A stretch of 19,168 nucleotides of DNA from Candidatus Hydrogenedentota bacterium (lineage in GTDB: Bacteria > Hydrogenedentota > Hydrogenedentia > Hydrogenedentales > CAILVY01), in the NCBI GenBank assembly GCA_029565395.1, contig JAKQOG010000022.1, positions 1 to 19,168 on the forward strand, given 5' to 3'. The notes beneath the pieces are model-generated. The model saw nothing but the letters and a program-made list of their open reading frames with translations. It searched no databases and was not told where the DNA came from. Below are positions 1-15,968 of this stretch, piece by piece. How positions within the stretch are numbered: the first letter of the stretch is position 1; each line of letters begins with the position of its first letter. The translations under genes were made by a program, and so were the position numbers.

Positions 1-1
1 G

Positions 2-1180: not shown

Positions 1181-1221
1181 GGAGTGTCATACTAATTATT
1201 CCAGGCAATCGCTATCAAGCC

Positions 1222-1284
1222 GGGAGGGGAGGAGGCGTGAGGGGGAGAATAGGACCAATAGGACCAATAGGACCGATAAGACCC
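1222..1284. repeat. 9-bp-periodic tandem array, degenerate GGGAGGNNN units followed by (ATAGGACCA)x3-4
   Basis: Units read off directly: gggagggga, ggaggcgtg, agggggaga, ataggacca, ataggacca, ataggaccg, ataagaccc. The 23-mer gggagaataggaccaataggacc (1243-1265) recurs at 14589-14611 with one mismatch. It lies in the divergent intergenic region between the LtaS-like gene (minus strand, start 1180) and secA (plus strand, start 1504). Confidence 0.8.
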
Positions 1285-1503
1285 TTTAAGCGCAGTGGGG
1301 CAAGGGGGGAGAAGTGCAAGAGGGTATGAAATGGGAAACAATGTCAATTTTGATGCCGATATGGATTTTTATGCGACATGGTATGGCACGATATACGATA
1401 TTCTCTTTATGCATAGGGTCCATGTTTTGGGAATTGTTTTAACGAACCCCTCTGCTTTGATATCATAGGTGCAGATAACCTGTATGAAAGAAGGTAAAGC
1501 AGC

Positions 1504-4251
1504 GTGATTTTTAAGCTTTTAGCATCGTTGTTCGGCACGGGCGCGGAACGGGACATCAAGCGTCTTTTGCCTCTATTGGAGGCGGTACAGGATCTTGAAT
1601 CTAAATTCAGCATGTTGACGAATGACCAGTTGCGTTCGTGGACCGGTATTTTCAAGGAACGGCTTGCGCAGGGGGCGACCCTGGACGATATATTGCCGGA
1701 AGCGTTTGCGGTGTGCCGTGAGACCGCCAAGCGGGTGGTGGGTCAACGGCATTTTAATGTTCAGATTCTTGGGGGCATTGTGTTGCACAAGGGTTCTATT
1801 GCGGAAATGGTCACGGGGGAAGGCAAAACGTTGGTGGCGACGCTGCCGGTATATTTGAATGCTTTGGACGGCGGGGGGGTGCATGTGGTGACGGTGAATG
1901 ATTATCTTGCTCGCCGAGACGCGGAATGGATGGGTCCGATTTATACGTTTCTTGGTCTGACGGTTGGTTTGATCCAGCATGACATGGATACGTGGGAACG
2001 GCAGGTGGGGTATCGTGCGGATGTAACGTTTGGCACGAATAATGAGTTTGGGTTTGATTATCTTCGGGACAACATGGCGGTTCGTCCGGAACACCGGGTT
2101 CAGCGGCAGTTGCATTATGCGATTGTGGACGAGGTGGATTCGATTCTGATAGACGAGGCGCGCACGCCGTTGATTATTTCCGGGCGCCCAGAAAAGAGCA
2201 GCGATATCTATTTGAAGGTGGACGACGTGGTGCGGCGTCTCCATAAGGAAACGCATTTTACTTTAGAAGAGAAAGGTCATCACATTTTGATGACGGAAGA
2301 GGGAATGGAGACGGCGGAGCGATTGCTGGGGATACCGGATTTATACACGAATGATGCGCTGGGATATGTTCATATGATAGAACAAGCGCTGAAGGCGCAC
2401 CATTTTTTCAAGCGGGATGACGAATACATGGTGCGGGACGGGGAAGTGCTTATTATTGACGAATTCACGGGCCGTACGATGGAGGGGCGGCGTTACTCGG
2501 ACGGGTTGCATCAGGCGCTGGAGGCGAAGGAACGCGTTCCGGTGAAGTTTGAATCGCAGACCATTGCCACGATCACATATCAGAATTATTTCAGGCTATA
2601 TGACAAACTGGCGGGGATGACGGGTACGGCGTTGACCGAGGCGGCTGAATTCAGCAAAACGTATAATCTGGACGTGATCCGGATTCCGACCAATCTCCCA
2701 TTGGTTCGTGAAGACATGACCGATCTGATTTTTGCCACGGAAAAGGGCAAGTTTAATTTTGTGGTGAATGAAATAGAGCGTATCCGCGAATCGGGCCGCC
2801 CGATTCTGGTGGGCACGGTGTCCATTGAGAAATCAGAATTGGTTGCGAAACTGCTGGAAGAAAACGACATCAGGGATTACCAGGTTCTGAATGCGAAGCA
2901 TCACGAGCGCGAGGCGTCGATTGTGGCGAATGCGGGCAAGCGTGGCGCTATCACCATTGCCACCAATATGGCGGGCCGCGGCACGGATATCAAACTTGCG
3001 GAAGGGATTCGGGAACTTGGGGGTTTGTTTATTATAGGCACGGAGCGCCATGAATCCCGGCGTATAGACAATCAGCTTCGCGGCCGTTGCGGCCGTCAGG
3101 GCGATCCGGGCAGCACGCGTTTTTACGTAAGTTTGGAAGACGAAGTGGCGCGGTTGTTTGGCGGCGACAAGGTGAAGCGGATGCTGAATCTCTTTGGGCG
3201 TCAGGGCAGCGAGGAAATGGATACGCAGCCGTTGAGCCAGCGGATGGTTTCGCGCTCCATCGAGCGTGCGCAACGGCAGGTGGAAGAATATAATTTTGAA
3301 ATTCGCAAGCACCTGCTTGATTATGACCTTGTGATGGACAAACAGCGCAAGTATATCTATGCGATGCGGAAGGATGTGTTGGAAGACAGGGATATTACGG
3401 AACGTCTGAACGAGATGTTTTCGAATATTATTGCGGATTGCATTGAGGAGTATGCGCCGGAAAAGGTTCCGCCGGAAGAGTGGGATTTGGATGGGCTGCA
3501 AAAGGCGTTGCGCAGTTTCTTCGGGTTTGATCTGGATGTGCTGGGGGAGAAGGATGAAACGCCGAAACCGCTTGAACAAAGCCTGTATGATCAGGTGCTT
3601 GCAGAATATCAGCGGCGGCATGCGTATATGGCCGATGAACTTCACGCCAGTTACCGGGAGCAAGTCGGAGATGAAGGGGCCGGGATTGATTTTACGAAAC
3701 TTGCGCGCAAACGCATTCACGATCTTGAGTTGATGTGTTTGCTCCGCGCCGTGGATGACAAATGGATAGATCATCTTTACGAGATGGATTATCTGCGGGA
3801 ATCGGTTCGGTTGCGCGCCTTTGGACAAAAAGATCCGCTTTTGGAGTATAAACAAGAGGGTTTTGAGCTATTCCAAAATATGGTTAGAACGGTCGAGGAG
3901 AACGTGGTTCAGACGCTTTTCCGGCTTACGGATCCGGAGGTGCGCAAGCGCCGAGCCGCAGGGATCCGGACGGGCACGCTCACGGCCAAAGACGATCCCT
4001 TTGAAGCGTTGCGGCATTACAGCTATGTGGCGGCGGACAAGGAGGCGGACAGCAGTTTCGCCTCTTTTGATACTTCGCGGTTCGCCCTGGCCGGTCAGGC
4101 TCCCCGTGCGCGCACGGAAGAAGGGCCGGGCGGCGAGAAACGACCCAAACGCGTTCCAGTGCGGGTGGCGGAGCGGGTGCGGCCAAACGAACCGTGTCCC
4201 TGCGGGAGCGGCAAGAAATATAAAAAGTGTTGCGGCAGAAACGTCGAATAA
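1504..4251 (+). CDS. secA: Preprotein translocase ATPase SecA
   Basis: 915 aa, GTG start. The N-terminus MIFKLLASLFGTGAERDIKRL matches the conserved SecA N-terminus. DEAD-like motor motifs are present (GEGKTLVATLP; DEVDSILIDEARTPLIISG; TNMAGRGTDIKL). The C-terminal CPCGSGKKYKKCCG (4195-4236) is the SecA zinc-binding (SecB-binding) tail. An AAGGT SD-like sequence lies about 12 nt upstream. Confidence 0.95.
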   Translation: MIFKLLASLFGTGAERDIKRLLPLLEAVQDLESKFSMLTNDQLRSWTGIFKERLAQGATLDDILPEAFAVCRETAKRVVGQRHFNVQILGGIVLHKGSIAEMVTGEGKTLVATLPVYLNALDGGGVHVVTVNDYLARRDAEWMGPIYTFLGLTVGLIQHDMDTWERQVGYRADVTFGTNNEFGFDYLRDNMAVRPEHRVQRQLHYAIVDEVDSILIDEARTPLIISGRPEKSSDIYLKVDDVVRRLHKETHFTLEEKGHHILMTEEGMETAERLLGIPDLYTNDALGYVHMIEQALKAHHFFKRDDEYMVRDGEVLIIDEFTGRTMEGRRYSDGLHQALEAKERVPVKFESQTIATITYQNYFRLYDKLAGMTGTALTEAAEFSKTYNLDVIRIPTNLPLVREDMTDLIFATEKGKFNFVVNEIERIRESGRPILVGTVSIEKSELVAKLLEENDIRDYQVLNAKHHEREASIVANAGKRGAITIATNMAGRGTDIKLAEGIRELGGLFIIGTERHESRRIDNQLRGRCGRQGDPGSTRFYVSLEDEVARLFGGDKVKRMLNLFGRQGSEEMDTQPLSQRMVSRSIERAQRQVEEYNFEIRKHLLDYDLVMDKQRKYIYAMRKDVLEDRDITERLNEMFSNIIADCIEEYAPEKVPPEEWDLDGLQKALRSFFGFDLDVLGEKDETPKPLEQSLYDQVLAEYQRRHAYMADELHASYREQVGDEGAGIDFTKLARKRIHDLELMCLLRAVDDKWIDHLYEMDYLRESVRLRAFGQKDPLLEYKQEGFELFQNMVRTVEENVVQTLFRLTDPEVRKRRAAGIRTGTLTAKDDPFEALRHYSYVAADKEADSSFASFDTSRFALAGQAPRARTEEGPGGEKRPKRVPVRVAERVRPNEPCPCGSGKKYKKCCGRNVE

Positions 4252-5717
4252 TCCTGCGTCTGGGCATAACCTTGTTTTGGCTCGTCATGATGGGTATTTT
4301 GGCGTATCGCGAGGTTGTCGTTCCCTGGCTGAATACGAGCCATCTCCCGCCCCGCCCGAATACGCCGATGGATCTCTGGCTGGGCATCTATGGAGGGGGA
4401 AATGCATCGGAACGGATTGGTTTTTTAAATGCGCGCAGTACTCCGGAGGTTCGCAGTGGGACGGTTGGCGTCAGCATGGGGTTGTCTGCGCGCATGGAAT
4501 TGCCCGTGTTCAGTGAAAACACGATGTTTACCCTCCACGGTTCTGCATGGATGTCGAATGCACGGGGTCTTTCGGAGTTTGATTTTACGTTTGGATCCGG
4601 CGGGCATGAAATGCGGGTTCAAGGTGAAGTGAAGGATAATCGCCTGAAGGCGAGTTTGGAGACGGGCGGGGAGAGTCTTCCTTTTGAATTACCGGTGAGC
4701 GATGAGTTATTGCTTTCCGGGGGGATGGGCATGTCCGCGTTTGACGTGCCTCTTCTTGATCCTGGCACAGAGATATATGTGGATGCCTTTGATCCCACGA
4801 CGATGTCTTTGGGCAAGGCGAAAATTACATGTGTTGGCAAGGAGGAGATATCTCTGCACGATGGGAAAACAGAGGCGTTTCTTGTCACGACCAGTATTGG
4901 CGGCATAACCAGCCGTGCGTGGCTTGCTGCCGATGGCGAAGTATTGCAGGTGGAGACGCCGTTTGGATTCACGTTAAAGAAGATCAGCCCGCAGGAAGCG
5001 ATGAGTCCGGTGTCACCCGGTGAAAATGCGGATTTGGTGCGCAGCTTTGCGATTCGGCCCAAAGGGGTCACTCCGAAACGGGACGCGGTGATGATGCGCG
5101 TGAAATTTTCGGGAGTGGAGGAGAAACATCTGCCTCCCAGTGATGCGGTGCAGACCCGTACTCCGGCAGGATATATAATTACGGTTCCGGAGGCGCCGGT
5201 GAAAGATCCAGGCGCCGCGCTCAGTGAGGAAGATCGCGCGCGCTATTTGCAGAGCGATGTGTTTGTTACGTCGGACCATCCGAAGATCCGGGAGGCCGCC
5301 GCGAATGCGGTGCGTGAGGAAACGGATCCCTGGAAACAAGCGGTTCGGTTGCATGACTGGGTGTTTTTGCGGGTGAAAAAAAAGCCCGTACTCAGCATTC
5401 CCACGGCCCTGGATGTTCTTCAGAGTCTTGAAGGCGACTGTAATGAACATGCAGTGCTCTTTGTGGCGATGGCGCGGGCGGTACAGATTCCTGCGCGGAT
5501 TGCGGTGGGTGTTGTGTGGAGTGAAGAGTTTGGTGCGTTTGGCTATCATGCATGGGCGGAGGTTTTTGTGGGAGACTGGATTCCGATGGATCCCACGTTT
5601 GGACAATTGGTGGCGGACGCCACGCATATCAAGCTGTTAAATGGCGGGATAGATCAATGGCCCCGTCTGCTTCCGCATATCGGGGCCATGCAAATTGAAG
5701 TACTGGAAGTTCGCTAG
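4227..5717 (+). CDS. Membrane-anchored transglutaminase-like (Cys-His-Asp) superfamily protein
   Basis: 496 aa. The N-terminus has the basic stretch RQKRR followed by a TM helix (ILRLGITLFWLVMMGILAY). The C-terminal domain carries the transglutaminase-like catalytic triad context: GDCNEHAVLFVAMARAV (Cys), GYHAWAEVFVGD (His), WIPMDPT (Asp). The ATG at 4227 lies inside the last codons of secA in the +1 frame, a 25-nt overlap. The alternative ATG at 4287 would cut the TM helix in half. Confidence 0.75.
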   Translation: MLRQKRRIILRLGITLFWLVMMGILAYREVVVPWLNTSHLPPRPNTPMDLWLGIYGGGNASERIGFLNARSTPEVRSGTVGVSMGLSARMELPVFSENTMFTLHGSAWMSNARGLSEFDFTFGSGGHEMRVQGEVKDNRLKASLETGGESLPFELPVSDELLLSGGMGMSAFDVPLLDPGTEIYVDAFDPTTMSLGKAKITCVGKEEISLHDGKTEAFLVTTSIGGITSRAWLAADGEVLQVETPFGFTLKKISPQEAMSPVSPGENADLVRSFAIRPKGVTPKRDAVMMRVKFSGVEEKHLPPSDAVQTRTPAGYIITVPEAPVKDPGAALSEEDRARYLQSDVFVTSDHPKIREAAANAVREETDPWKQAVRLHDWVFLRVKKKPVLSIPTALDVLQSLEGDCNEHAVLFVAMARAVQIPARIAVGVVWSEEFGAFGYHAWAEVFVGDWIPMDPTFGQLVADATHIKLLNGGIDQWPRLLPHIGAMQIEVLEVR

Positions 5718-5720
5718 GAA

Positions 5721-7280
5721 TTACTTGGGTTGTGCGTCCTTGTTTGCCTCGGCACTTTTCCCAGCTTCTTCATCTACGATTTTTGCGATTGAGTCGGGGA
5801 ATTGCACGCCGGCGATGTCTTTCATGGTGTGCAGGAGCGGGGGAACGACGCCGGCGAGATTGCTGAGGAAATTGGCGGTGGCGTTTTTGCCATTGGCGCC
5901 CGCGCCGCCGTCCCAGACGACGACTTTGTCGAATTTCACACCGGCAATGGCTTTGGCGGATTCTTCGGCCAGTTTATCCAAGTGTTCCAGCATGAGCATC
6001 TGGAAGGCGTTGTCGGAACCGCCGCAGGCGTCCACGATCTGGCGTAAACCATCGGCCTTTTGACGCAGTATCTCGAATTGACCGCGGGCCTGAGCCTCCA
6101 GTTTTGCGAAGATAGCCTTGGCCTCGCCTTCGGCTTCGATGCGCCGCTTTTCGGCTTCCGCTTCGGCCTCCACGATGATCTGGGCTTTCTGTGCTTTTGC
6201 GGGGGCTTCCAATTCCGCGCGGCGTTCCGCTTCCACCTTGGTTGCTTCCGCCAAGGCTGCTTTGGCCAACGCCAAGTTGCGCGCTTCCAATACAGCGGCT
6301 TTGGAGACTTCGGTTTGGGTTTCCGCGCGCTGGAAGGCTTCGGCTTCGCGCACCTTTAGTTCCGCGTTCGAGACGGCAATGGTGGCTTTGGCGGTATTTT
6401 CGCCTTCCACGGCTTTAGCGTTCGCGGCAGAAACGGAGACGCGCATGTCACGTTCGGCTTCTTTGATTTGTGCATCCCGTTGAAATGCTGCATTGGATTG
6501 GCCGACTTTTTCTGATTTTTCCAGTTCGGCGACTTGTACGGATTGATCGCGTTGAGCGGAGCGGATGCCGATGATCTGTGATTTCTGTGCTTCGGCGACT
6601 TGCACTTCTTTTTCACGGACGTTTTGGGCCACGCGGATTTCGCCGAGTTTTTCCTGTTCCGCCACGTCCGCGCGGGCCTGTTGCACGGCTTCGGAGGCCG
6701 CTTTCCGTCCGATGGCGTCGATATAGCCGGAGTTGTCGCTGATGTCGGTGATGTTGACGTTGATCAGCACCAGACCGATCTTGCGCAATTCGGGTTCAAG
6801 CGAGTTTTGGATGCTGGTGAGGAAGTGTTCGCGGTCCCGGTTAATTTCCTCGATGCGCATGGATGCGATGACCTGGCGCAATTGACCGAAGATGATGTCT
6901 TCGGCCTGTTTCTTGATTTGCGGCTGGGTCAGCCCCAAGAGGCGGATGGCCGCATTGTTCATGATTACGGGATCGGTCCCGATGGCCACGGTGAATACGC
7001 TGGGGACGTTTACGCGGATGTTTTCCAGCGAGAGGGCGTCTTTGAGCGGGACGTCAATCTGGATGGGTTCCAGGCTCAAATAGGCGTAGTCCTGGATGAG
7101 GGGGATGACAAAGGCGGCGCCGCCGTGGATGCATCGTGCGGATCCGCTGCCGCCGACTTTGCCGTAGATAACCATGATTTGATTGCTGGGGCAGCGTTTG
7201 TAGCGGGAGGACAGCATGATCAGGAAACTGGTGAATAGGATGGCGGCGAGGGCCGCGATGGCGATTATCCAGGCAAACAT
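5721..7280 (-). CDS. Flotillin-like SPFH/band-7 protein (YqiK/FloT-like)
   Basis: 519 aa. It has an N-terminal TM helix (MFAWIIAIAALAAILFTSFLIML). An SPFH domain follows, then a long Ala/Glu-rich coiled coil (EAEAEAEKRRIEAEGEAKA...). An AAGGAG SD sits 6 nt upstream of the ATG at 7280. The stop is only 3 bp from the convergent stop of the transglutaminase-like gene. Confidence 0.88.
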   Translation of the reverse strand: MFAWIIAIAALAAILFTSFLIMLSSRYKRCPSNQIMVIYGKVGGSGSARCIHGGAAFVIPLIQDYAYLSLEPIQIDVPLKDALSLENIRVNVPSVFTVAIGTDPVIMNNAAIRLLGLTQPQIKKQAEDIIFGQLRQVIASMRIEEINRDREHFLTSIQNSLEPELRKIGLVLINVNITDISDNSGYIDAIGRKAASEAVQQARADVAEQEKLGEIRVAQNVREKEVQVAEAQKSQIIGIRSAQRDQSVQVAELEKSEKVGQSNAAFQRDAQIKEAERDMRVSVSAANAKAVEGENTAKATIAVSNAELKVREAEAFQRAETQTEVSKAAVLEARNLALAKAALAEATKVEAERRAELEAPAKAQKAQIIVEAEAEAEKRRIEAEGEAKAIFAKLEAQARGQFEILRQKADGLRQIVDACGGSDNAFQMLMLEHLDKLAEESAKAIAGVKFDKVVVWDGGAGANGKNATANFLSNLAGVVPPLLHTMKDIAGVQFPDSIAKIVDEEAGKSAEANKDAQPK

Positions 7281-7349
7281 ACATATCTCCTTGTGTTGAA
7301 CTCTATCTAAAACCGGGGGAAAGGCGGGATACCTTTTCCACGTTTACCC

Positions 7350-7946
7350 TTATACGACTTTTTTCATGTGCTTTACTTCGACGGTGTTTTCATTCACAAT
7401 GCCGGTCACAATCACATCGCTGCCGGTTGGAATGGATACTTCTTCGTCGGTGAAGGCTTCATATTCCATGGAACGGTTCTGGACGGCGACGGTCACCTTG
7501 CCTGCGCCGGTCCGTTTTGCCGGGATGGTTAGATACACTGTAGCGGTCATGCCCAAGGCGTTTTCAATGCGAACCGTGCCTTCGGCGTGCAGGGTCATGA
7601 AGAGATGCATTACCCAGGCTACCAGAATCATGGCGGCGACGCCGGCAGACAGTGCGAGGGAAAAGGCAAAGAACGAGGGCAGGCCGGCGGACATTCCCAA
7701 TCCGCCGCCCAGTCCGAAAAAGGTGATGGAGGCCACCATCGATCGGAAGCTGACCAGTTTGAAAAACCAGGAGGAATCGTGTGTATCGCCACCATGATGC
7801 TCGGTGGCGTGGGCGCCGTCATGCATGTCGAAGTGTTCCGAACCATCCGCCATGCCATGGTGGTCCAACCCGATTAGGGCGAGGATGAACTGGATGGTCA
7901 GAATAATTCCGCCGGCCACCGCACACACTGCATATAGGGTAAACAT
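7350..7946 (-). CDS. NfeD-like membrane protein (short form, C-terminal OB-fold), cotranscribed partner of the flotillin gene
   Basis: 198 aa from the ATG at 7946, which is preceded by GGGAGAG 6 nt upstream. There are TM helices (MFTLYAVCAVAGGIILTIQFILALIGL; ...MVASITFFGLGGGLGMSAGLPSFFAFSLALSAGVAAMILVAWV). A His-rich loop follows (HHGMADGSEHFDMHDGAHATEHHGGDTHDS). The C-terminal beta-rich tail is ...TVYLTIPAKRTGAGKVTVAVQNRSMEYEAFTDEEVSIPTGSDVIVTGIV, which fits an NfeD OB-fold. The gene lies 69 nt upstream of the flotillin gene, the classic NfeD-flotillin pairing. The track's longer ORF (to 8207) uses a TTG and runs through the 9-mer array. An alternative in-frame ATG lies at 8024. Confidence 0.75.
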   Translation of the reverse strand: MFTLYAVCAVAGGIILTIQFILALIGLDHHGMADGSEHFDMHDGAHATEHHGGDTHDSSWFFKLVSFRSMVASITFFGLGGGLGMSAGLPSFFAFSLALSAGVAAMILVAWVMHLFMTLHAEGTVRIENALGMTATVYLTIPAKRTGAGKVTVAVQNRSMEYEAFTDEEVSIPTGSDVIVTGIVNENTVEVKHMKKVV

Positions 7947-8092
7947 CGGCTTTCTCTCCCATTTCCGGCACGTTGGTGTTCTGGTTTTCACCGGTATTAC
8001 AACCATACTAAGGAAAATATTCATACTCGTCAATGTATTCTTTTGGGCTGGGATGGAAACGGTTGGTTGAGAATATTCCAGGACGATAGCAT

Positions 8093-8200
8093 GGGAAGAC
8101 TGGGAGGACTGGGAAGACTGGGAGGACTGGGAGGACTGGGAGGACTGGGAGGACTGGGAGGACTGGGAGGACTGGGATGGATAAATGGGATGAAATGGTT
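8093..8200. repeat. Perfect 9-bp tandem array (GGGAGGACT/GGGAAGACT) x9, decaying into degenerate 9-mers
   Basis: Nine contiguous units span 8093-8173 (gggaagact, gggaggact, gggaagact, then gggaggact x6). Degenerate units follow: gggatggat, aaatgggat, gaaatggtt. The array sits in a divergent intergenic region between NfeD (minus strand) and sulfatase 1 (plus strand). The unit resembles the downstream gene's own RBS context (tgggaggtgact ATG at 8291-8305). Confidence 0.9.
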
Positions 8201-8302
8201 TAGGCAAGGGGAATCTTTAATTTTTAGCATTGTTGACCTGTTATGGCTGGAGTTTGTAAAGTGAGGATAGGATAGAAGCTCGAAATTACTTGGGAGGTGA
8301 CT

Positions 8303-9745
8303 ATGATGACTGTATCGTATACGCGTCGGGAAGCTCTGAACCGGATGGCCATTCTGGGTGCATTGGGTTTACTTGGAGGGCAGGGGGGCGCCTCCGCCAA
8401 GACTAAACCATTGCCCAATATTCTGTTTATCATGTCGGATGATCATGCGGCGCATGCGATAGGGTGTTATGGGAGCAAGGTGAATCAAACGCCGAATATT
8501 GATCGCATTGCGAAAGAAGGGATGCGTTTTGAGCATTGTTTGTGCTCTAACGCGATTTGCGGCCCGAGCCGAGCGGTGATTTTGACTGGGAAGTACAGTC
8601 ATATTAATGGATTTCGCACGAATAGCGACAAGTTTGACGGTTCGCAGCAGACCTTTCCCAAGTTGTTACAAAAGGCGGGGTATGCGACCGCGATCATCGG
8701 GAAGTGGCATCTGGTGAGTCCACCGACGGGATTTGATTATTGGAACATTCTTCCGGGCCAGGGGGATTACGTGGATCCAGTGTTGATTGAAATGGGGGAG
8801 AAGAAAAAGCATCAAGGGTATGTGACGGATCTTATCGCCGATTTTACGATGGAGTTCATCCGCAAGCGGGATAAGAATAAGCCGTTTTGCGTGATGTGCC
8901 ATAACAAGGCGCCGCACCGGAATTGGATTCCCGATGCCAAGCATGCGGATATGTATAGCGACCCCATTCCGGTTCCGGAAACGTTTGATGATGATTACCA
9001 GGGGCGAAGCCCAGCGGCGGCACGTGCGGAGATGCGTGTTGCGCGTGACATGACGCCGAAGGATCTGAAAGAGAACCCGCCGGAGGGTCTTGAAGGCGAA
9101 GCGCTGGCACGATGGAAGTATCAGCGGTACATGGAAGATTATCTGCGGGTAGTGGCATCGGTGGACGATAATGTGGGGCGGTTGTTGGATTTTCTGGATG
9201 CGGAAGGGTTGCGCGACAATACGCTGGTGATCTATACATCGGACCAGGGATTTTTCCTGGGGGATCATGGATGGTTCGACAAGCGGTTCATGTTTGAGGA
9301 ATCGTTGAAGATGCCGTTGCTGGCGCGTTGGCCCGGGGTCATTGAACCTGGCACCGTGAACGAGGATATGGTGTCGAATATGGATTTTGCGCCGACGTTT
9401 TTAGCGTGCGCGGGGATAGAAACGCCGGGGGACATGCAGGGGCACTCCATGATGCCGATTTTGAAGGGAAAGCATCCTAATGATTGGCGAAAGACGTTTT
9501 ATTATGAGTATTTTGAGTATCCGGCAGTGCACAGTGTGTATCCGCATTATGGGGTGTGCACGAAAAAGCATAAGCTGATTCATTATGTGTACAAGGAGGA
9601 GATTGATGCGTGGGAGCTTTTTGATCTCGAAAAGGATCCGCATGAAATGCACAGTGTGTATGACGATCCCGCGTATGCCGACGTGGTGAAGGAGTTGAAG
9701 GGGGAGTTGGCAAGATTACGGAAGGAATTGAAGGTACCAGCGTGA
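8303..9745 (+). CDS. Cys-type sulfatase (formylglycine-dependent) with Tat signal peptide
   Basis: The start is ATG 8303 with a GGGAGGTG SD 5 nt upstream. The track's GTG at 8297 is less likely. Tat-like N-terminus: TRREALNRMAILGALGLLGGQGGASA. The sulfatase signature is NILFIMSDDH ... CSNAICGPSRAVILTGKY (C-x-P-x-R), followed by IGKWHL. Confidence 0.88.
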   Translation: MMTVSYTRREALNRMAILGALGLLGGQGGASAKTKPLPNILFIMSDDHAAHAIGCYGSKVNQTPNIDRIAKEGMRFEHCLCSNAICGPSRAVILTGKYSHINGFRTNSDKFDGSQQTFPKLLQKAGYATAIIGKWHLVSPPTGFDYWNILPGQGDYVDPVLIEMGEKKKHQGYVTDLIADFTMEFIRKRDKNKPFCVMCHNKAPHRNWIPDAKHADMYSDPIPVPETFDDDYQGRSPAAARAEMRVARDMTPKDLKENPPEGLEGEALARWKYQRYMEDYLRVVASVDDNVGRLLDFLDAEGLRDNTLVIYTSDQGFFLGDHGWFDKRFMFEESLKMPLLARWPGVIEPGTVNEDMVSNMDFAPTFLACAGIETPGDMQGHSMMPILKGKHPNDWRKTFYYEYFEYPAVHSVYPHYGVCTKKHKLIHYVYKEEIDAWELFDLEKDPHEMHSVYDDPAYADVVKELKGELARLRKELKVPA

Positions 9746-9776
9746 GCAAGATTTGCGTGGTTATGAGTACATTGAT

Positions 9777-11216
9777 TCATGGAGAATACGGCACGGTTCC
9801 GGTTTTGTCTACTGTGTAGCCGAATTGCTGGATGTATTTCTCGGCGGGGAGGAAGCGGTCGTTGCGTTCGTTAAGTTTTTGTTGGAGCAAGTCGTCCAGT
9901 TGGTGTTGAATGGCTGAATTTTCCGGGGAATTACACAGATTTTTTTGTTGATAGGGATCGGCTTCATTGTCGAAGAGGAGCCAAGGGCCGTTCAGGTCGC
10001 GTACGTACGTGTATCGGAGGGTGCGAATCCCGCGGCATTCACGGCCGCCTTGCTTTCGGGTCCATTCGCCGAAGGGGGCCATGCACAGTAATAGGGCGGC
10101 GTCTACTTGAGGATCTTCACCCTGTAAAAGCGGTGTGGAGAGATCCTTGCCTTCCACGGTGGACGGAATGGGAACAGCACACAGACCCAGAAGGGTGGGC
10201 ATGATGTCCGGGGCATTAAGCAATGTGGGAACGTTGCGTCCTTTTGTGCCGAGGCGCGCGGGATAACGCAGGAGAAACGGAACGCGGAGGGATTCGTCGT
10301 AGGGTTTTTGTTTTCGAATCATGCCTTGGGAAAACAGCATGTCGCCATGATCGGACGTGAAGACGAACACGGTATTTTCCGAGAGGCGGCATTCGTCCAG
10401 AGTGGCGAGGAGATCGCCGATGCAGTCGTCCAAGGCACAGATATGTGCATAATATCCCGCGAGATCTCGCCGAGCTTCTTTTTCCGAGGCTTCGGGGACA
10501 TTCGGGCGCAATACCAGTTTCTCCGAAGTAATGCGTTTTTGGCAGGATTCCGGGGCGGTTTCGTAGGGGTTGTGGGGCGGCCCCCAGGAGAGAAATAGTG
10601 CAAAGGGCCGATCAGTGGCATGGTTGCGGACGTACTGTTGGGCCTCGCGGGTTTGCGCAATTGCATCATAGCCTTCCCATTCTTTAGGCACTGGTTCGTC
10701 GGCATAGTATTTTGAATGGTTGTAGTCGTGGGTGCATTCCTGGACCCGCCAATACTGAAATCCCTGGCGGTGTTCGGGGGGAATGAAACTGGAGCGGCCA
10801 TGGCCTTCCAGATGCCATTTGCCGATATAGGCGGTGTCGTACCCGGATCCTACGAGGGCTTCCGCGATACTCACGGCGTCGTCGCGCAGGTGGACGTCGT
10901 TTAAGAACACTCCGTGGGTTTGCCAGTATTGTCCGGTCAACAAACTGGCGCGATAGGGGGAGCACACGGGACATCCGGAAACGGCATGGGTGAAATTCAG
11001 GCTTTGCGCCGCCAGTTGGTCCAGGTGGGGTGTTAGCGCGTTGGGATCGCCTGCGTACCCGGTGGCTTGCGCGCGCCATTGATCCGCAAACACAAATACG
11101 AGATTCGGCGGTTTCGTTCCGGAAGTTTTTGCGGATTCAATAGCAAAAGTACCTGGAGATATGGCCAAGCCGGCAGCCCCGGCGGCAAGGGTATTTAAAA
11201 ATTCACGGCGTTTCAT
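9777..11216 (-). CDS. Cys-type sulfatase with Tat signal peptide
   Basis: 479 aa. The N-terminus MKRREFLNTLAAGAAGLAISPGTFA is a twin-arginine motif. The signature is LVFVFADQWR ... SGCPVCSPYRASLLTGQY (CxPxR) and IGKWHL. It is convergent with sulfatase 1, 31 bp apart. Confidence 0.88.
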   Translation of the reverse strand: MKRREFLNTLAAGAAGLAISPGTFAIESAKTSGTKPPNLVFVFADQWRAQATGYAGDPNALTPHLDQLAAQSLNFTHAVSGCPVCSPYRASLLTGQYWQTHGVFLNDVHLRDDAVSIAEALVGSGYDTAYIGKWHLEGHGRSSFIPPEHRQGFQYWRVQECTHDYNHSKYYADEPVPKEWEGYDAIAQTREAQQYVRNHATDRPFALFLSWGPPHNPYETAPESCQKRITSEKLVLRPNVPEASEKEARRDLAGYYAHICALDDCIGDLLATLDECRLSENTVFVFTSDHGDMLFSQGMIRKQKPYDESLRVPFLLRYPARLGTKGRNVPTLLNAPDIMPTLLGLCAVPIPSTVEGKDLSTPLLQGEDPQVDAALLLCMAPFGEWTRKQGGRECRGIRTLRYTYVRDLNGPWLLFDNEADPYQQKNLCNSPENSAIQHQLDDLLQQKLNERNDRFLPAEKYIQQFGYTVDKTGTVPYSP

Positions 11217-11247
11217 GGTATCTAAAAACCTTAAAGATTTATATTGT

Positions 11248-11277
11248 TAATCACTACTACTTTCTTTTCACGAGAAA
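11248..11277. other. Perfect 13-bp inverted repeat / stem-loop (CTACTTTCTTTTC-acga-GAAAAGAAAGTAG) between two sulfatase genes, with no U-tract on either side
   Basis: Both arms were read directly and their reverse complement verified. The element lies in the 83-bp spacer between the sulfatase at 11300..12937 and the sulfatase at 9777..11216, both on the minus strand. Confidence 0.6.
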
Positions 11278-11299
11278 AGAAAGTAGCAAAGAAAAGCGG

Positions 11300-12937
11300 T
11301 TATTTGAGGACGTCTCCTGGTTTATCGGGAAAGCCTTTGACTCCTCGTGAGTGATCGAACTGATATATCCGTTGCATGGGACGATCTTGCGGGGGCAAGA
11401 CGAGCAGATTGCCGTCTTTGTTGAGTGCACGTTTGACATTGGTACGGGACAGCGCTTTTGCGGCCACTTTGCGCAGGCGTTTGGCCACTTCGGAGTCAGT
11501 GGTAATCCGTTGCTTCAACTCGTTCGGGTCATCTTTCAGATTAAAGAGCTGTTCCAAACCGCCGTTGGCCATGAAGATGTATTTCCAATTGCCTTCGCGC
11601 ACCATGACCTTGAAGAGATTCTTGCCGGGCATGCCGTAATAGCCGATGAGGTGTTCGCGGCCTTTCGCGTTTCCTTTCGCTAGATCGAGCACATTTATGC
11701 CTTCGCGCAGTTCCGGATTTCCCGAAGCGGACGTGGCGATTCCGAAGAGATCCGTCAGGGACACGAGGGCATCGTTTTTCACGTTGGCAGGCAACTGTTC
11801 CGGCCAACTGACCAGGAAGGGGACGTGGCATGCGGCCTCGAAGAAACTTTCTTTCTGCCAGGAGTAATGATCGCCGAGATGATCGCCATGATCGGAAAAG
11901 AAGCAAATCAGAGTATTCGCGGCATCGCCGCGCGCCTCTACGGCATCGAGAATCCGGCCAAGACACTGATCGATATAAGAAATTTCGCCGTAATACCGCG
12001 CTTTGAGCACGCGCGCATGGGAATCATTGATGTCCTCCGCCCAGATGGCGTGATTCATCCAGCGGAGTTGTTCATCCATCAGGTCGACGGCCTTGTCGCC
12101 CCGAATGGGATCCGGCATGCGGTCGGGATCGTACATACGGTTGAAGGGAATAGGGGGCGCGAGTGGGGGATGGGGGCCGATGAAGGATACAAGGCCGAAA
12201 TAGGGGCGTGGGTCTGATTGTGCGATCTGCTCGACGGCACAGTCGGCGGCCCATGCTTCCACGCCGAATGCAGCGGGGAGGGGACTCATCTGGGGCATGT
12301 AATACATTTCCGTGCGCTCGCCCATGAGCCCTTCAACGAAATCGTATTCGGGGTGTTTCTCCCGAATAAACGTTGCGTATGAATCACGATTACGTTGATC
12401 CGGAGAGCCGTAGAGTTCTTCGCTGTGCCGATGCACTTCATAGCCGACGTCTTCATCCCAGGGATGGGTATGGAATTTTCCGATGCCGAAGGTGCGGTAG
12501 CCGCGTTGAGTCATCGTGCGTGCGAGATAGGGTCCGCAACGGTCTTCATTTTTTTCGGGTTGGCCCTCGACGAGTTTTGGTCCAGCATTTGAATAGACGC
12601 CCGTAGTGGGCGCGTCACAGCCGGTACGGATGGTCAATCGGGCGGGAACGCATACGGGGCAGGGCGAATAGGCATTGGTGAACGCGATGCCGCGCGCCAC
12701 GAGCCGGTCGTAATTTGGCGTGTAGATGTGCGGATTGCCCAGCGCGGCGATGGTGTCCGCACGCTGCTGATCCGTCATGATGAACAGGATGTTGGGGGGA
12801 TGGCTGGACGGTGGGGCGGGGGGTGGTGCACCTTCTTTCGCTGTGGCGGTGAGGGAGGTGGCCGCGGCGGCGGTGAGAATGCCTAAAAACTCACGGCGCT
12901 GGAGCATTCCCTGTGTGGGGGAAGAAGGTTTATGCAT
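11300..12937 (-). CDS. Cys-type sulfatase with Tat signal peptide
   Basis: 545 aa. The ATG at 12937 has an AAGGAAA SD about 5 nt upstream. The Tat motif is QRREFLGILTAAAATSLTATA. The signature is NILFIMTDQQR ... YSPCPVCVPARLTIRTG (CxPxR) and IGKFH. Confidence 0.85.
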   Translation of the reverse strand: MHKPSSPTQGMLQRREFLGILTAAAATSLTATAKEGAPPPAPPSSHPPNILFIMTDQQRADTIAALGNPHIYTPNYDRLVARGIAFTNAYSPCPVCVPARLTIRTGCDAPTTGVYSNAGPKLVEGQPEKNEDRCGPYLARTMTQRGYRTFGIGKFHTHPWDEDVGYEVHRHSEELYGSPDQRNRDSYATFIREKHPEYDFVEGLMGERTEMYYMPQMSPLPAAFGVEAWAADCAVEQIAQSDPRPYFGLVSFIGPHPPLAPPIPFNRMYDPDRMPDPIRGDKAVDLMDEQLRWMNHAIWAEDINDSHARVLKARYYGEISYIDQCLGRILDAVEARGDAANTLICFFSDHGDHLGDHYSWQKESFFEAACHVPFLVSWPEQLPANVKNDALVSLTDLFGIATSASGNPELREGINVLDLAKGNAKGREHLIGYYGMPGKNLFKVMVREGNWKYIFMANGGLEQLFNLKDDPNELKQRITTDSEVAKRLRKVAAKALSRTNVKRALNKDGNLLVLPPQDRPMQRIYQFDHSRGVKGFPDKPGDVLK

Positions 12938-12963
12938 GGCATTTTCCTTTTTGCGCGAGGCTA

Positions 12964-14364: not shown

Positions 14365-14543
14365 AGCCGGTTCCTTGTTCAATAGTGATTGTACCCACTG
14401 CTGGGGAGGCGATCAACGTATTATCGAGGGAAATAGGTGAAGATGATTGTTTTCTGCCACCCCTCCAGGATGGTTTGTTTATGGGGGGGGCCGGGGGTAT
14501 CGCTTCGCTCAACCCCTGGCTTTCGGACAGTACGGCAACGCTG

Positions 14544-14624
14544 GGGGTGAGTGGGAGGACTGGGAGGACTGGGAAGGCTGGGAAGGCTGGGAGAATAGGA
14601 CCAATAAGACCTATAAGACCTATA
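14544..14624. repeat. 9-bp-periodic tandem array, (GGGAGGACT)x2, (GGGAAGGCT)x2, GGGAGAATA, GGACCAATA, (AGACCTATA)x2
   Basis: Units read directly from 14553 onward. The array contains the 23-mer gggagaataggaccaataagacc, shared with 1243-1265. It lies upstream of sulfatase 4 (minus strand) at the left edge of the AT-rich islet. A G8 homopolymer sits 55 bp to its left, at 14483-14490. Confidence 0.85.
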
Positions 14625-14789
14625 AAAGGGAGCGTGTATCAGGGGGTGGACTGAATTTGAGGAGGGAGTGAGGCAGCCGCTGTATATTGCATTTTCAGTA
14701 TGAAACCTTTTTGTTGTCAGGGGAGTCTTAAGGGTGTATTCAGTCGGGATGCATTGAGGTTCAGAGGAATTTTTCAGCATGTTTATTCT

Positions 14790-14990
14790 ATGCGTGTATC
14801 TAGTGTTTTTTTCGCCGGAGTCGCGGTAGCGGTGGTGTTGGTGGGGCTGGCGCATGCTGCTCCCGAGAAAAAACAGCGCACTCTCACGGTTGACTGCGCC
14901 GATACGTTTTTTAATAGGAGGCATGCTTGGTGTGAATCGATGGCTGTTTTTTACGCTATATCACATCGGATCGGCCAGAGGATGTTCTAA
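14790..14990 (+). CDS. Hypothetical small secreted protein (66 aa) with a signal peptide
   Basis: The internal ATG at 14790 gives MRVSSVFFAGVAVAVVLVGLAHA|APEKKQRTLTVDCADTFFNRRHAWCESMAVFYAISHRIGQRMF, a textbook n-h-c signal peptide with an AHA-A cleavage site and a roughly 43-aa mature part with 2 Cys. The RBS is weak (AGAGGA 22 nt upstream). It overlaps a competing minus-strand ORF (14421..14924) that I consider less likely. Confidence 0.3.
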   Translation: MRVSSVFFAGVAVAVVLVGLAHAAPEKKQRTLTVDCADTFFNRRHAWCESMAVFYAISHRIGQRMF

Positions 14991-15157
14991 ATCAGTATCC
15001 TCCATTTCACCAGGAGGAAATTTTCAGGATTCACGCGTAGCCGGTGGTAACGTTGGTGGCTGAGAGTGTTCTTTGAGTTCATTTTCATCGCTGCGATCAT
15101 TTGTGGCCATGCGGGGCATGTGAGGGCATGTGAGTCCTAATGAGTAACAAAGAACGC

Positions 15158-15589
15158 CTATAACAACTCAATTTTTTGAGTTCGGCAAACATCTATGAAA
15201 TCTTCCGCATTAAATGTAAGCAAAGCATCCTTTTTTATGGTGATGTCGTCTAGAACAAGACGTATTACCATGTCCGCAAGCGCGATAACTCTTTTTTTTG
15301 ATTTGGACCATCGAAGAGTAATCTCAAGAGCTTTGTCCCGGTATGGTGTATCATCTATGCGCAAGAAATGAGGCTGACGCAGCAAGGATTCAAACCGTAC
15401 GACCTGATGTGGTTTTTTGCAAAAACGTGTATTAATGGTTTCGTAAAGCGATGGCCAAGGCACCAGGACATTCATCTGTGCCAATACATTTTCTTTTTCC
15501 CCCGCCTGTGCATGGTACTGGTCTCTTGGATCAAATAAAGCGAACCAAAATCCGGTGTCCACAACAATACTTTTCGTAAATCTACTCAT
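15158..15589 (-). CDS. PIN-domain ribonuclease (VapC-like toxin family)
   Basis: 143 aa. The N-terminal SIVVDTGFWFALFDPRDQYHAQA follows the canonical VapC pattern (first Asp in the DT motif, ALF-x-D-xx-H-xx-A). Further acidic positions appear in LYETINT and ALADMVI. The C-terminal LLTFNAEDFIDV is the T-x-N-xx-DF PIN signature. Its ATG overlaps the stop of the upstream gene by 8 nt (ATGAGTAG). The local sequence is AT-rich. Confidence 0.75.
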   Translation of the reverse strand: MSRFTKSIVVDTGFWFALFDPRDQYHAQAGEKENVLAQMNVLVPWPSLYETINTRFCKKPHQVVRFESLLRQPHFLRIDDTPYRDKALEITLRWSKSKKRVIALADMVIRLVLDDITIKKDALLTFNAEDFIDVCRTQKIELL

Positions 15590-15902: not shown

Positions 15903-15953
15903 AAAACACCTCCTCGAAAAACATTCTAGCACACCTATTGTTATGTTGCAATC

Positions 15954-15968
15954 TTGAATGATTTTCAA
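15954..15968. promoter_or_regulatory. Short palindrome TTGAA-tgatt-TTCAA in the divergent promoter region, a possible operator
   Basis: The inverted 5-bp arms were read directly. The element lies about 52 bp upstream of the start of the partner-PIN operon and about 105 bp upstream of the oxidoreductase start. Confidence 0.2.

What the first reader, a model, noticed from the sequence alone, without database searches (positions are those of the whole stretch)
8093..8200. Family of 9-bp-periodic GGGAGG-core tandem arrays in three divergent promoter regions
The arrays at 1222-1284, 8093-8200 and 14544-14624 are all built of 9-bp units. Each starts as GGGAGGACT-like units, nine perfect copies at 8093-8173, and drifts to ATAGGACCA/AGACCTATA units. 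Two arrays share a near-identical 23-mer (gggagaataggaccaata[g/a]gacc). All three sit between divergently transcribed genes. All reading frames are open through them, and the track's spurious ORFs encode (GGL)n, (SPP)n, (SQS)n and (EDW)n. The unit contains an SD-like GGAGG and matches the RBS context of the adjacent sulfatase gene (tgggaggtgact). The 9-bp period differs from the 10.5-bp helical repeat, so successive copies rotate around the helix. This looks like a dispersed, genome-specific intergenic element family. Its copy number would change promoter spacing, so it could be a VNTR or phase-variation element, a regulator binding array, or expanded RBS-derived sequence.
Basis: seen in the sequence. 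Interest (0 to 1): 0.6.

Follow-up and report, generated by a model that had tools for sequence, protein, structure and literature searches.

The report
Intergenic 9-bp simple-sequence repeat arrays
Three non-coding stretches in this uncultured Hydrogenedentota genome are tandem arrays of 9-bp units, most likely grown by replication slippage in the loosest part of promoter-bearing spacers; they are an ordinary kind of bacterial repeat, though the same 9-bp units turn up in several other phyla.

Summary
The arrays are real and far beyond chance. They use two unit types: GGGA(G/A)GACT and ATA(G/A)GACC(N). Arrays 1 and 3 share a 23-mer junction with one mismatch.

The window comes from a Hydrogenedentota MAG. 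The arrays fall in the three longest spacers. By consensus prediction they lie upstream of the -35 boxes, so they are probably not transcribed.

- **Stability:** arrays 1 and 2 are base-identical in three assemblies each of the same strain.
- **Variation:** both differ by whole units in a relative with 97% SecA identity.
- **Absence:** relatives at 75-84% SecA identity lack these units.
- **Flanks:** flanks are unrelated and there is no Rfam match.
- **G4:** G-tract counts across 57 arrays decay with no peak at four.

My best reading is slippage-driven long simple-sequence repeats of the 5-11-bp class, a nonamer counterpart of the heptamer families known in Nostoc, Xanthomonas and Beggiatoaceae. 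The RBS-derived, phase-variation and genome-specific readings are not supported.

One thing remains unexplained. The same nonamers, sometimes in the same G-type-then-AT-type order, occur in Prevotella, Alistipes and Lentisphaeria and widely in metagenomes.

The parts
1222..1242 (+). G-rich, non-periodic lead of array 1 (GGGAGGGGAGGAGGCGTGAGG). It begins 4 bp upstream of the predicted -35 box of the minus-strand promoter.
   Evidence: Sequence read. Not reported as periodic. G4Hunter-type window 1215-1255 scores 1.29.
1243..1284 (+). Array 1: junction unit GGGAGAATA, then GGACCAATA x2, GGACCGATA and AGACCC. In the other register this is ATAGGACCA x3 plus ATAAGACC.
   Evidence: TRF 1248-1283, period 9, 4.0 copies. 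Probe matches. Identical in three assemblies. About two units shorter and partly different in the relative with 97% SecA identity.
8093..8182 (+). Array 2: GGGAAGACT, GGGAGGACT, GGGAAGACT, then GGGAGGACT x6, then the degenerate unit GGGATGGAT.
   Evidence: TRF 8092-8177, 9.6 copies, 96% matches.. Identical in three assemblies. Different unit order in L115. Two canonical G4 motifs on the + strand.
8183..8212 (+). Degenerate G/A-rich tail of array 2 (AAATGGGATGAAATGGTTTAGGCAAGGGGA).
   Evidence: TRF row 8179-8198, period 10. Shares the 9-mers ATGAAATGG and GGCAAGGGG with the right flank of array 1, but flank similarity is not significant.
14544..14593 (+). Array 3a, G-type units: GGGGTGAGT, GGGAGGACT x2, GGGAAGGCT x2, and the start of the junction unit GGGAGAATA.
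   Evidence: TRF 14552-14593, 4.7 copies.. One canonical G4 motif at 14543-14573. A JGI contig ends inside it.
14594..14628 (+). Array 3b, AT-type units: AATAGGACC, AATAAGACC, TATAAGACC, TATAA.
   Evidence: TRF 14594-14625, 3.6 copies.. The 18-mer shared with array 1 spans the junction.
8005..8033 (-). Predicted sigma-70-type promoter (TTGACG-17-TAGTAT) for the 198-aa gene that starts at 7946/7955. Array 2 lies upstream of it.
   Evidence: consensus match only. The block is conserved in the 97% relative, while the 5' UTR just downstream has diverged.
8233..8262 (+). Predicted promoter (TTGACC-18-TAAAGT) for the sulfatase gene that starts at 8303. Array 2 lies upstream of it.
   Evidence: consensus match only.
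1189..1218 (-). Predicted promoter (TTGATA-18-TAGTAT) for the membrane sulfatase-family gene that starts at 1180. It would give a near-leaderless transcript.
   Evidence: Conserved in L115.
1439..1466 (+). Predicted promoter (TTAACG-16-TATCAT, with TG) for secA (start 1504).
   Evidence: Conserved in L115.
14388..14416 (-). Predicted promoter (TTGATC-17-TACAAT) for the sulfatase gene that starts at 14364. Array 3 lies about 130 bp upstream of its -35 box.
   Evidence: consensus match only.

Best explanation
The three arrays are non-coding, probably non-transcribed long simple-sequence repeats with 9-bp units. This is the 'LSSR 5-11 bp' class of bacterial tandem repeats.

They sit in the least constrained middle of long spacers, upstream of the promoters on either side. 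They most likely grow and shrink by whole units through replication slippage, or unequal exchange, starting from short proto-repeats. Occasional ectopic copying between arrays would explain the shared junction.

Their effect on the cell is probably small and indirect. They lengthen the spacer between promoters, and their G-rich strand could form weak G-quadruplexes. On this view they persist because they are tolerated there, not because each array has a dedicated function.

**Shown:** periodicity, non-coding status, whole-unit differences between relatives, stability within a strain, absence from more distant relatives.

**Inferred:** slippage as the mechanism, lack of transcription, near-neutrality.
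For: 1. Head-to-tail 9-bp arrays far beyond chance.
2. Array 2 has a homogeneous interior of six identical units, with its variant units at the edges. This is the usual signature of slippage turnover.
3. The relative with 97% SecA identity keeps arrays at the same two positions but differs by whole units. Array 1 has about two fewer ATAGGACCA units. Array 2 has the G/A unit order shifted by one unit.
4. Relatives at 75-84% SecA identity keep the sulfatase/secA/transglutaminase synteny but have no such arrays in about 60 kb. Their secA spacers are 42-251 bp, against 324 bp here.
5. The arrays occupy the three longest spacers. In the alignment of the secA spacer with the 97% relative, predicted promoter blocks are conserved while the middle, including the array, carries the indels.
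6. Flanks of the three arrays are not significantly alike (p = 0.05-0.6). This argues against a larger mobile element.
7. No Rfam family or tRNA is found. Reading frames through the different arrays are inconsistent, and the G-type frame hits TAG at the junction (sequence).
8. Across 57 non-coding GGGARGACT arrays in other genomes, the number of phased G-tracts falls off: 2:14, 3:17, 4:8, 5:5, 6:7, then a few longer. There is no peak at four.
9. Genomes that carry these arrays also carry many other 7-, 8- and 9-bp arrays with different units. This points to a general tendency for repeats to expand.
10. Published precedent. Mrazek 2007, as summarised in PMC4679880, proposed that the abundance of 5-11-bp repeats reflects polymerase slippage. 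Rehm 2015 (PMC4692102) found heptamer repeats at the same intergenic positions in two Xanthomonas species, with extensive length variation and no identifiable regulatory role.
Against: 1. The same two nonamer types recur together in unrelated phyla: the window, Prevotella L048/L037/L107, Alistipes L027 and Lentisphaeria L066/L031/L057. In the window and in the Prevotella and Alistipes loci they are joined directly, in the same 5' G-type to 3' AT-type order, with a similar junction GGGAGA(A/T)ATAGGAC. Random seeds plus slippage do not predict this.
2. ATARGACYN arrays are very common in metagenomes: at least 120 loci where about one is expected. G-runs are enriched on their 5' side, 95 against 42.
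3. 18 of 65 G-type arrays begin with NAT-GGGA.
4. Arrays 1 and 3 share a 23-mer, which needs copying between loci.
5. Arrays 1 and 2 are identical across assemblies of the same strain. They are therefore not highly unstable, although the samples may not be independent.
6. Promoter positions are consensus predictions only. No transcript data were available.
Confidence: 0.55

Rival explanations
1. G-quadruplex or other non-B-DNA element. The G-rich strand of arrays 2 and 3 folds into G4 structures under the negative supercoiling produced between divergent promoters. It then acts as a supercoil sink, insulator or transcription modulator.
For: All canonical (G3N1-7)x4 motifs in the window are on the + strand. 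Three of the four lie in arrays 2 and 3. The unit scores about 1.3 on the G4Hunter scale. G-rich heptamer repeats of Xanthomonas and Nostoc form G4 in vitro (PMC4692102). Arrays 1 and 2 lie between divergent promoters, where negative supercoils accumulate under the twin-domain model (general knowledge).
Against: The AT-type units (all the periodic part of array 1 and half of array 3) have no G-tracts. Loops would be 6 nt, and predicted G4 energies are weak: -6.8 kcal/mol for three G4s in array 2. 31 of 57 related arrays have fewer than four G-tracts, and there is no peak at four, unlike the heptamer class. Rehm 2015 found their G4 repeats under-represented between divergent ORFs, the opposite of the situation here. 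The whole + strand of the window is G-rich, so many windows pass the G4Hunter threshold anyway.
Confidence: 0.14
2. Binding array for a sequence-specific DNA-binding (or RNA-binding) factor that recognises a core such as (A/G)GGAC or AAGAC repeated every 9 bp. Such a factor would be shared by several phyla.
For: Both unit types share A(G/A)GAC. The same units and the same composite order recur across phyla. Unit families in Lentisphaeria share an (A/C)TGGGA / ATAGGA core. There is 5' polarity and a preferred ATGGGA start.
Against: No candidate protein was identified. Arrays lie next to functionally unrelated genes. They are absent from the orthologous spacer in relatives at 75-84% SecA identity. 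Unit sequences vary widely within one genome. Length distributions look like slippage decay. In other genomes the arrays occur in tandem, convergent and divergent contexts alike, though that analysis was crude.
Confidence: 0.12
3. Contingency (phase-variation) locus. Frequent gain and loss of units changes promoter geometry and switches expression of the flanking genes.
For: Whole-unit differences between close relatives. Several independent contigs end inside arrays, which could reflect population heterogeneity. The arrays are in promoter-bearing spacers.
Against: Arrays 1 and 2 are base-identical in three assemblies each. They lie outside the predicted -35/-10 spacers and outside ORFs. 9-bp steps do not shift a reading frame. 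The neighbours are secA and sulfatases, not surface-antigen genes. Contig breaks are equally well explained by short-k assembly of repeats.
Confidence: 0.06
4. Mobile or copied element: a miniature transposable element, or footprints of repeated 9-bp target-site duplications, spread within the genome and between phyla by horizontal transfer.
For: A 23-mer shared between two loci 13 kb apart. Similar composite arrays in distant phyla. In one Lentisphaeria MAG the arrays are embedded in a recurring hairpin-containing repeat.
Against: The flanks of the three window arrays are not significantly similar. There are no terminal inverted repeats and no transposase in the window. Target-site duplications would be locus-specific, not shared units. 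Three-unit G-type arrays gave no hit in 2.9 million viral contigs.
Confidence: 0.05
5. RNA-level or coding element: a transcribed 5' UTR with multiple SD-like GGAGG sites (RBS-derived, a ribosome or CsrA-type sponge), or a small glycine-rich ORF such as the 57-aa gene called over array 2.
For: The unit contains GGAGG and resembles the sulfatase RBS context. Public gene calls include a 57-aa ORF (8091-8264 +) and a 167-aa ORF (14421-14924 -) across the arrays. Many arrays start with ATGGGA.
Against: Predicted promoters place the arrays upstream of the transcription starts. The frames differ between arrays, and the G-type frame stops at the junction (GGA GAA TAG). There is no SD before the ATG at 8091. 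There is no Rfam hit. The same units occur in Bacteroidales, where SD pairing is little used (general knowledge).
Confidence: 0.04

Closest known systems
Long simple sequence repeats with 5-11-bp units (LSSR 5-11; Mrazek, Guo & Shah 2007, as summarised in PMC4679880 and PMC4692102)
   Same: Perfect or near-perfect head-to-tail repeats of a 5-11-bp unit. They are longer than chance, mostly intergenic, patchily distributed among lineages, and variable between close relatives. They are thought to reflect slippage rather than a dedicated function.
   Different: Heptamers were the dominant class in that survey, whereas here the unit is 9 bp. The host is an uncultured Hydrogenedentota. Two unit types are joined in one array.
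G-rich heptamer repeats GGGAATC (Xanthomonas) and GGGGA(C/T)T (Nostoc, equivalent to STRR1) that form G-quadruplexes (Rehm et al. 2015, PMC4692102)
   Same: A G3 tract in every unit, so the canonical G4 motif is met. Non-coding bias. Retained at the same intergenic positions in related genomes, with length and sequence variation. No identified regulatory role. The unit shares the ACTGGG core with the Nostoc heptamer.
   Different: 9-bp rather than 7-bp unit, giving 6-nt loops. No preference for four units. Here the arrays lie between divergent genes, where the heptamers are under-represented. Half of the family (ATAGGACC units) cannot form G4.
TAACTGA heptamer direct repeats of Beggiatoaceae, Cyanobacteria and some Bacteroidetes (MacGregor 2015, PMC4679880)
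   Same: One specific short unit recurs as intergenic tandem arrays in phylogenetically distant lineages, with no evident transfer mechanism. Function is unknown.
   Different: Those repeats sit within a few nucleotides of start codons, which suggests translational control. The window arrays are 40-220 bp from start codons and upstream of the predicted promoters.
Phase-variable promoter or ORF simple-sequence repeats of host-adapted pathogens (Neisseria, Haemophilus; 1-5-bp units)
   Same: Tandem repeats near promoters whose copy number can change by slippage.
   Different: The unit is 9 bp. It lies outside the -35/-10 spacer and outside ORFs. No within-strain variation was seen. The neighbours are housekeeping or catabolic genes.

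Membership tests
Long simple sequence repeats, 5-11-bp units (LSSR 5-11) | Head-to-tail iterations of a 5-11-bp unit | tested here: met
   Period 9, with 3.6-9.6 copies.
Long simple sequence repeats, 5-11-bp units (LSSR 5-11) | Run longer than expected by chance in that sequence | tested here: met
   12 and 5 probe matches against a mean of 0.01 in 200 shuffles.
Long simple sequence repeats, 5-11-bp units (LSSR 5-11) | Copy number and sequence vary between related strains by whole units | tested here: met
   Window compared with L115, the relative with 97% SecA identity. Arrays 1 and 2 are identical within the same strain.
G4-forming G-rich repeat class (Rehm 2015) | Each unit carries a run of at least three G, so four or more units meet G3N1-7 x4 | tested here: inconclusive
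   Met for arrays 2 and 3a. Not met for the AT-type units, which make up array 1 and array 3b.
G4-forming G-rich repeat class (Rehm 2015) | Heptameric unit GGGNATC or GGGGAYT | tested here: not met
   The unit is the nonamer GGGA(G/A)GACT.
G4-forming G-rich repeat class (Rehm 2015) | Strong preference for four units | tested here: not met
   G-tract counts 2:14, 3:17, 4:8, 5:5, 6:7, then a tail. The window arrays have about 10 and about 6.
G4-forming G-rich repeat class (Rehm 2015) | Quadruplex formation shown biophysically | not testable with these tools
   Only a thermodynamic prediction was possible, and it is weak.
Phase-variation (contingency) repeats | Repeat lies within an ORF or between promoter elements, so a unit change switches expression | tested here: not met
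   The arrays lie upstream of the predicted -35 boxes on both sides and outside ORFs. This rests on prediction only.
Phase-variation (contingency) repeats | High-frequency length variation within a strain or population | tested here: inconclusive
   Consensus sequences are identical in three assemblies each for arrays 1 and 2. Read-level heterogeneity could not be examined.
REP / BIME / MITE-type dispersed elements | Palindromic or hairpin-forming core, or terminal inverted repeats, with conserved sequence beyond the repeat | tested here: not met
   The array 2 strand has no predicted hairpin, 0.0 kcal/mol. Flanks are not significantly similar.
Known structured RNAs (Rfam 15) and tRNA/tmRNA | Match to a covariance model or tRNA fold | tested here: not met
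   No match in or near the arrays at E <= 1. No tRNA.
Collagen-like (Gly-Pro-Ile) coding repeats, for the ATAGGACCA units | Array lies inside a long ORF in the GGA-CCA-ATA frame | tested here: not met
   In the window the arrays are 35-42 bp long and lie in spacers between genes. In contrast, most viral hits to the same pattern are coding.

The most novel reading that the evidence does not exclude
The window arrays belong to a cross-phylum family of 9-bp repeats with an (A/C)T(G/A)GGA / A(G/A)GAC core. The family has a preferred 5' G-type to 3' AT-type order and a preferred ATGGGA start. On this reading, a dedicated sequence-specific agent makes or maintains the family: a conserved DNA-binding protein, or an enzyme that adds or copies units. 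Generic slippage would not be the cause. The arrays would then act as spacers or insulators upstream of promoters.
Probability: 0.12. Interest if true: 0.7.

Novelty: new member of a known kind. Interest (0 to 1): 0.33.

Why it matters
**Practical consequences**
- These arrays break metagenome contigs. Four independent contigs end inside them.
- They create spurious ORFs in public annotation: a 57-aa and a 167-aa "protein" here. Recognising them improves assembly and annotation of Hydrogenedentota and of other repeat-rich uncultured lineages.

**Biological consequences**
- The arrays extend the little-studied class of 6-9-bp bacterial repeats, which Rehm 2015 notes are rarely reported, to nonamers and to a new phylum.
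- The recurrence of the same nonamers in distant phyla parallels the unexplained TAACTGA case. It could be followed up in cultured Prevotella or Victivallis.
- If the arrays are simply tolerated slippage products, they are ordinary.

Tried and rejected
1. **Larger mobile element.** Arrays 1 and 2 share a few colinear 8-9-mers in their flanks. Local alignment against shuffles is not significant, p = 0.05-0.6. Rejected.
2. **Link to the replication strand.** All three arrays are G-rich on the strongly G-skewed + strand. In 56 loci from other genomes, array orientation matched local GC skew 31 times and opposed it 25 times. No general link.
3. **Preference for divergent promoters.** A crude masked-ORF context analysis of arrays in other genomes gave 40 tandem, 16 convergent and 13 divergent. 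No general preference. My first ORF-based classification was invalid, because the arrays themselves create long open frames.
4. **Selection for four G-tracts (G4).** Not seen.
5. **Small-ORF reading.** The frames are inconsistent and the G-type frame hits a stop at the junction. Rejected from direct reading of the sequence.
6. **Phage carriage.** Three-unit G-type arrays gave no hit in viral contigs. AT-type hits there are mostly collagen-like coding repeats.
7. **Literature.** Literal searches for the nonamer dimers found nothing. Searches for nonamer or 9-bp tandem repeats found nothing relevant beyond MLVA markers. Mrazek 2007 itself is not held and is cited through PMC4679880.
8. **Scan limits.** The source genome's other contigs were not retrieved, so no genome-wide census was possible.

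Full report

Yes, in its core. Tandem Repeats Finder reports period-9 arrays at four places:

| Coordinates | Unit | Copies |
|---|---|---|
| 1248-1283 | AATAGGACC | 4.0 |
| 8092-8177 | TGGGAGGAC | 9.6 (96% matches) |
| 14552-14593 | TGGGAGGAC | 4.7 |
| 14594-14625 | AATAAGACC | 3.6 |

- Two-unit probes with up to three mismatches find 12 and 5 matches, all on the + strand. The mean in 200 dinucleotide-preserving shuffles is 0.01, and no shuffle reached the observed count.
- Arrays 1 and 3 share the exact 18-mer GGGAGAATAGGACCAATA.

Five details need correcting:
- Array 2 has seven GGGAGGACT and two GGGAAGACT units, not nine perfect copies.
- 1222-1242 is G-rich but not periodic.
- The switch to ATAGGACC-type units is an abrupt junction about 5 bp out of phase, not a drift.
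- The AT-type units carry TAG or TAA in one + frame, so not every frame is open.
- The divergent context holds for arrays 1 and 2. For array 3 it depends on an unverified small ORF (14700 or 14790 to 14990) with no Pfam match.

**2. Source and setting**

- An exact-protein look-up places the window on contig DAONNH010000144.1 of MAG GCA_035393045.1.
- The named SecA homologues at 67-73% identity are from Candidatus Hydrogenedentes.
- The genes are a membrane sulfatase-family gene (-), secA and a transglutaminase-like gene (+), a Band-7 gene and a 198-aa gene (-), four sulfatases, a small low-GC segment, a GFO/IDH/MocA oxidoreductase and an Ig-domain protein.
- The arrays occupy the three longest spacers, about 324, 348 and at least 415 bp.
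- Consensus promoter scans put a sigma-70-like promoter for each flanking gene outside the arrays. The -35 boxes are at 1213-1218 (-) and 1439 (+), at 8028-8033 (-) and 8233 (+), and at 14411-14416 (-).
- If those predictions hold, the arrays are upstream of the predicted promoters on either side (both sides for arrays 1 and 2; no +-strand promoter was predicted to the right of array 3) and are not transcribed. This is inference from consensus matches. No transcript data exist.
- Rfam and tRNA searches find nothing in or near the arrays.

**3. Behaviour across strains and relatives**

- *Same strain.* Array 2 is base-identical in the MAG and in two JGI metagenome contigs. Array 1 is identical in the MAG and two ENA assemblies. 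The flanks are 100% identical, so this is the same strain, and the samples may not be independent.
- *Assembly breaks.* Four contigs end inside arrays. Short-k assembly of repeats explains this as well as population heterogeneity does.
- *Relative with 97% SecA identity (L115).* Arrays sit at the same two positions but differ by whole units.
  - Array 1 has roughly one clean ATAGGACCA unit, against three to four here.
  - Array 2 starts G-A-G-A, against A-G-A-G-G-G in the window.
  - The predicted promoter blocks are conserved, and the spacer middle carries other indels too.
- *Relatives at 75-84% SecA identity.* The sulfatase/secA/transglutaminase synteny is kept, but there are no such arrays in about 60 kb. 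Their secA spacers are 42-251 bp.
- *Relative at 79% SecA identity (L346).* It has a different nonamer array, GATGGACAC x4.5.

So the arrays are young and lineage-specific, and they change by unit gain and loss on the timescale of species divergence.

**4. Not genome-specific**

About 70 such 18-mers are expected by chance in 596 Gb, and many hits are coding Glu-Asp-Trp runs. Non-coding arrays of three or more units, however, cluster in:
- Lentisphaeria and Victivallales MAGs, with 12 contigs from one MAG;
- Opitutales;
- Prevotella, Alistipes and Tidjanibacter;
- a few other lineages.

These genomes also hold many other 7-, 8- and 9-bp arrays. Examples are TATGGGTCC, ATGGACATT, GGGAATAAT, TGAAAAT and CACCAGT. 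Some spacers of about 1 kb are mosaics of such arrays.

Of the arrays with enough flank to classify:
- 74 look non-coding and 30 look coding, the latter mainly collagen-like Gly-Pro-Ile repeats;
- about a fifth of those with full flanks have an inverted copy within 80 nt.

**5. What slippage alone does not explain**

- The two unit types co-occur in the window, in three Prevotella loci, in one Alistipes locus and in Lentisphaeria. In the window and in the Prevotella and Alistipes loci they are joined directly, in the same 5' G-type to 3' AT-type order, with a similar junction GGGAGA(A/T)ATAGGAC.
- Upstream of AT-type arrays, GGG is twice as frequent as downstream, 95 against 42.
- 18 of 65 G-type arrays start NAT-GGGA.
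- These regularities, together with the 23-mer shared by arrays 1 and 3, keep open a sequence-specific agent or copying between arrays.
- Against a mobile element: the flanks of the three window arrays are not significantly alike, and three-unit G-type arrays are absent from 2.9 million viral contigs.

**6. Tests of the other mechanisms**

- *G-quadruplex.*
  - All four canonical G4 motifs in the window are on the + strand, and three are in arrays 2 and 3.
  - However, the loops would be 6 nt and the predicted energies are weak.
  - The AT-type units cannot take part.
  - Across 57 related non-coding arrays the number of phased G-tracts decays (2:14, 3:17, 4:8, 5:5, 6:7, then a tail) with no peak at four. 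The heptamer class of Rehm 2015 does show that peak (PMC4692102).
- *Strand bias.* The shared + orientation matches the strong local GC skew of +0.17. In other genomes orientation is unrelated to skew, 31 against 25.
- *Context.* A crude masked-ORF analysis shows arrays in tandem, convergent and divergent spacers alike in other genomes.
- *RBS origin or small ORF.* The predicted promoter positions, the inconsistent frames (the G-type frame stops at GGA GAA TAG) and the lack of an SD before the ATG at 8091 all argue against these readings. The public gene calls across the arrays (57 aa and 167 aa) are best treated as spurious.

**7. Best explanation**

- The arrays are long simple-sequence repeats of the 5-11-bp class. 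They sit in the least constrained part of promoter-bearing spacers and grow and shrink by replication slippage, with occasional copying between arrays. Their direct effect on expression is small at most. My confidence is about 0.55.
- The closest described relatives are three:
  - the LSSR 5-11 class of Mrazek 2007, as summarised in PMC4679880;
  - the G-rich heptamer repeats of Xanthomonas and Nostoc (PMC4692102);
  - the TAACTGA repeats shared by Beggiatoaceae, Cyanobacteria and Bacteroidetes (PMC4679880).
- The window arrays meet the defining features of the LSSR class.
- They fail those of the G4-heptamer class (unit length, preference for four units), of contingency loci (position, within-strain variability) and of REP/MITE elements.

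**8. Novelty and score**

- This is a new member of a known kind: nonamer rather than heptamer units, in a new phylum.
- No paper in the searchable library mentions these nonamers.
- The cross-phylum recurrence and the composite order are mildly surprising, but they parallel the TAACTGA precedent.
- Interest is 0.33.
- The most novel reading not excluded is a dedicated sequence-specific agent behind a cross-phylum nonamer family. I give it a probability of about 0.12. It would deserve an interest of about 0.7 if true.

Noticed in passing
window 1-19168; also L115: Very strong GC skew. (G-C)/(G+C) is about +0.17 over the whole window and up to +0.33 in 1-kb windows, whichever way the genes run. 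The relative with 97% SecA identity shares it (+0.20). Relatives at 75-84% do not (-0.07 to +0.06).
   Followed up: partly
window 17283-17310: A perfect hexamer array, (CGATAG) x4.7, in the convergent spacer between the GFO/IDH/MocA oxidoreductase and the Ig-domain gene. The same hexamer CGATAG lies immediately 5' of array 2, at 8084-8089.
   Followed up: no
window 15001-16000: A low-GC segment (0.43, against about 0.54 elsewhere) with two overlapping small minus-strand ORFs, 15158-15589 and 15582-15992. The first gives a sub-threshold PIN-domain match (E = 0.0088, 17.1 bits against a cutoff of 23.6). This may be a toxin-antitoxin pair or a small acquired island.
   Followed up: partly
window 8091-8264 (+) and 14421-14924 (-): Public gene calls on the source contig include a 57-aa and a 167-aa ORF that run through arrays 2 and 3 (Gly-Gly-Leu and Ser-Pro-Pro runs). 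These are probably spurious proteins now sitting in databases.
   Followed up: partly
L114 1, L115 8669, L238 1, L247 1: Contigs from four independent assemblies end inside or at the edge of arrays 1, 2 or 3. These short arrays therefore fragment metagenome assemblies of this organism.
   Followed up: partly
L064 2900-3950; L066 3200-3850 (Lentisphaeria MAG CAIKZE01): Spacers of about 1 kb built almost entirely of many different 7-, 8- and 9-bp tandem arrays, interleaved with short hairpin repeats such as ACTCCAAAGTCTCGGAGT and CCGTCCGAGACGGACGG.
   Followed up: partly
L118, L146, L148, L205 and others (metagenome loci): ATAGGACC-type arrays are often followed within 80 nt by their own reverse complement, 24 of 116 cases. 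Several of these long hairpins lie just after stop codons, which suggests a terminator-like or REP-like use of the same unit.
   Followed up: partly
L346 5682-5726: Another Hydrogenedentota (SecA 79% identical) has a different nonamer array, GATGGACAC x4.5, in a spacer. The unit resembles the ATGGACATT arrays of Lentisphaeria.
   Followed up: no
L248-L343 (viral contigs): The ATARGACYN x3 pattern hits 96 viral contigs, mostly inside long ORFs (80 coding-likely against 29). These are probably collagen-like Gly-Pro-Ile repeats of tail fibres and giant-virus proteins. The same DNA word is therefore used both as coding and as non-coding repeat.
   Followed up: partly
window 1-1180, 1504-5717; L116, L344, L345, L346: The arrangement membrane sulfatase-family gene (-) / secA (+) / transglutaminase-like gene (+) is conserved across Hydrogenedentota relatives down to 75% SecA identity. 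The spacer before secA ranges from 42 to 324 bp.
   Followed up: partly
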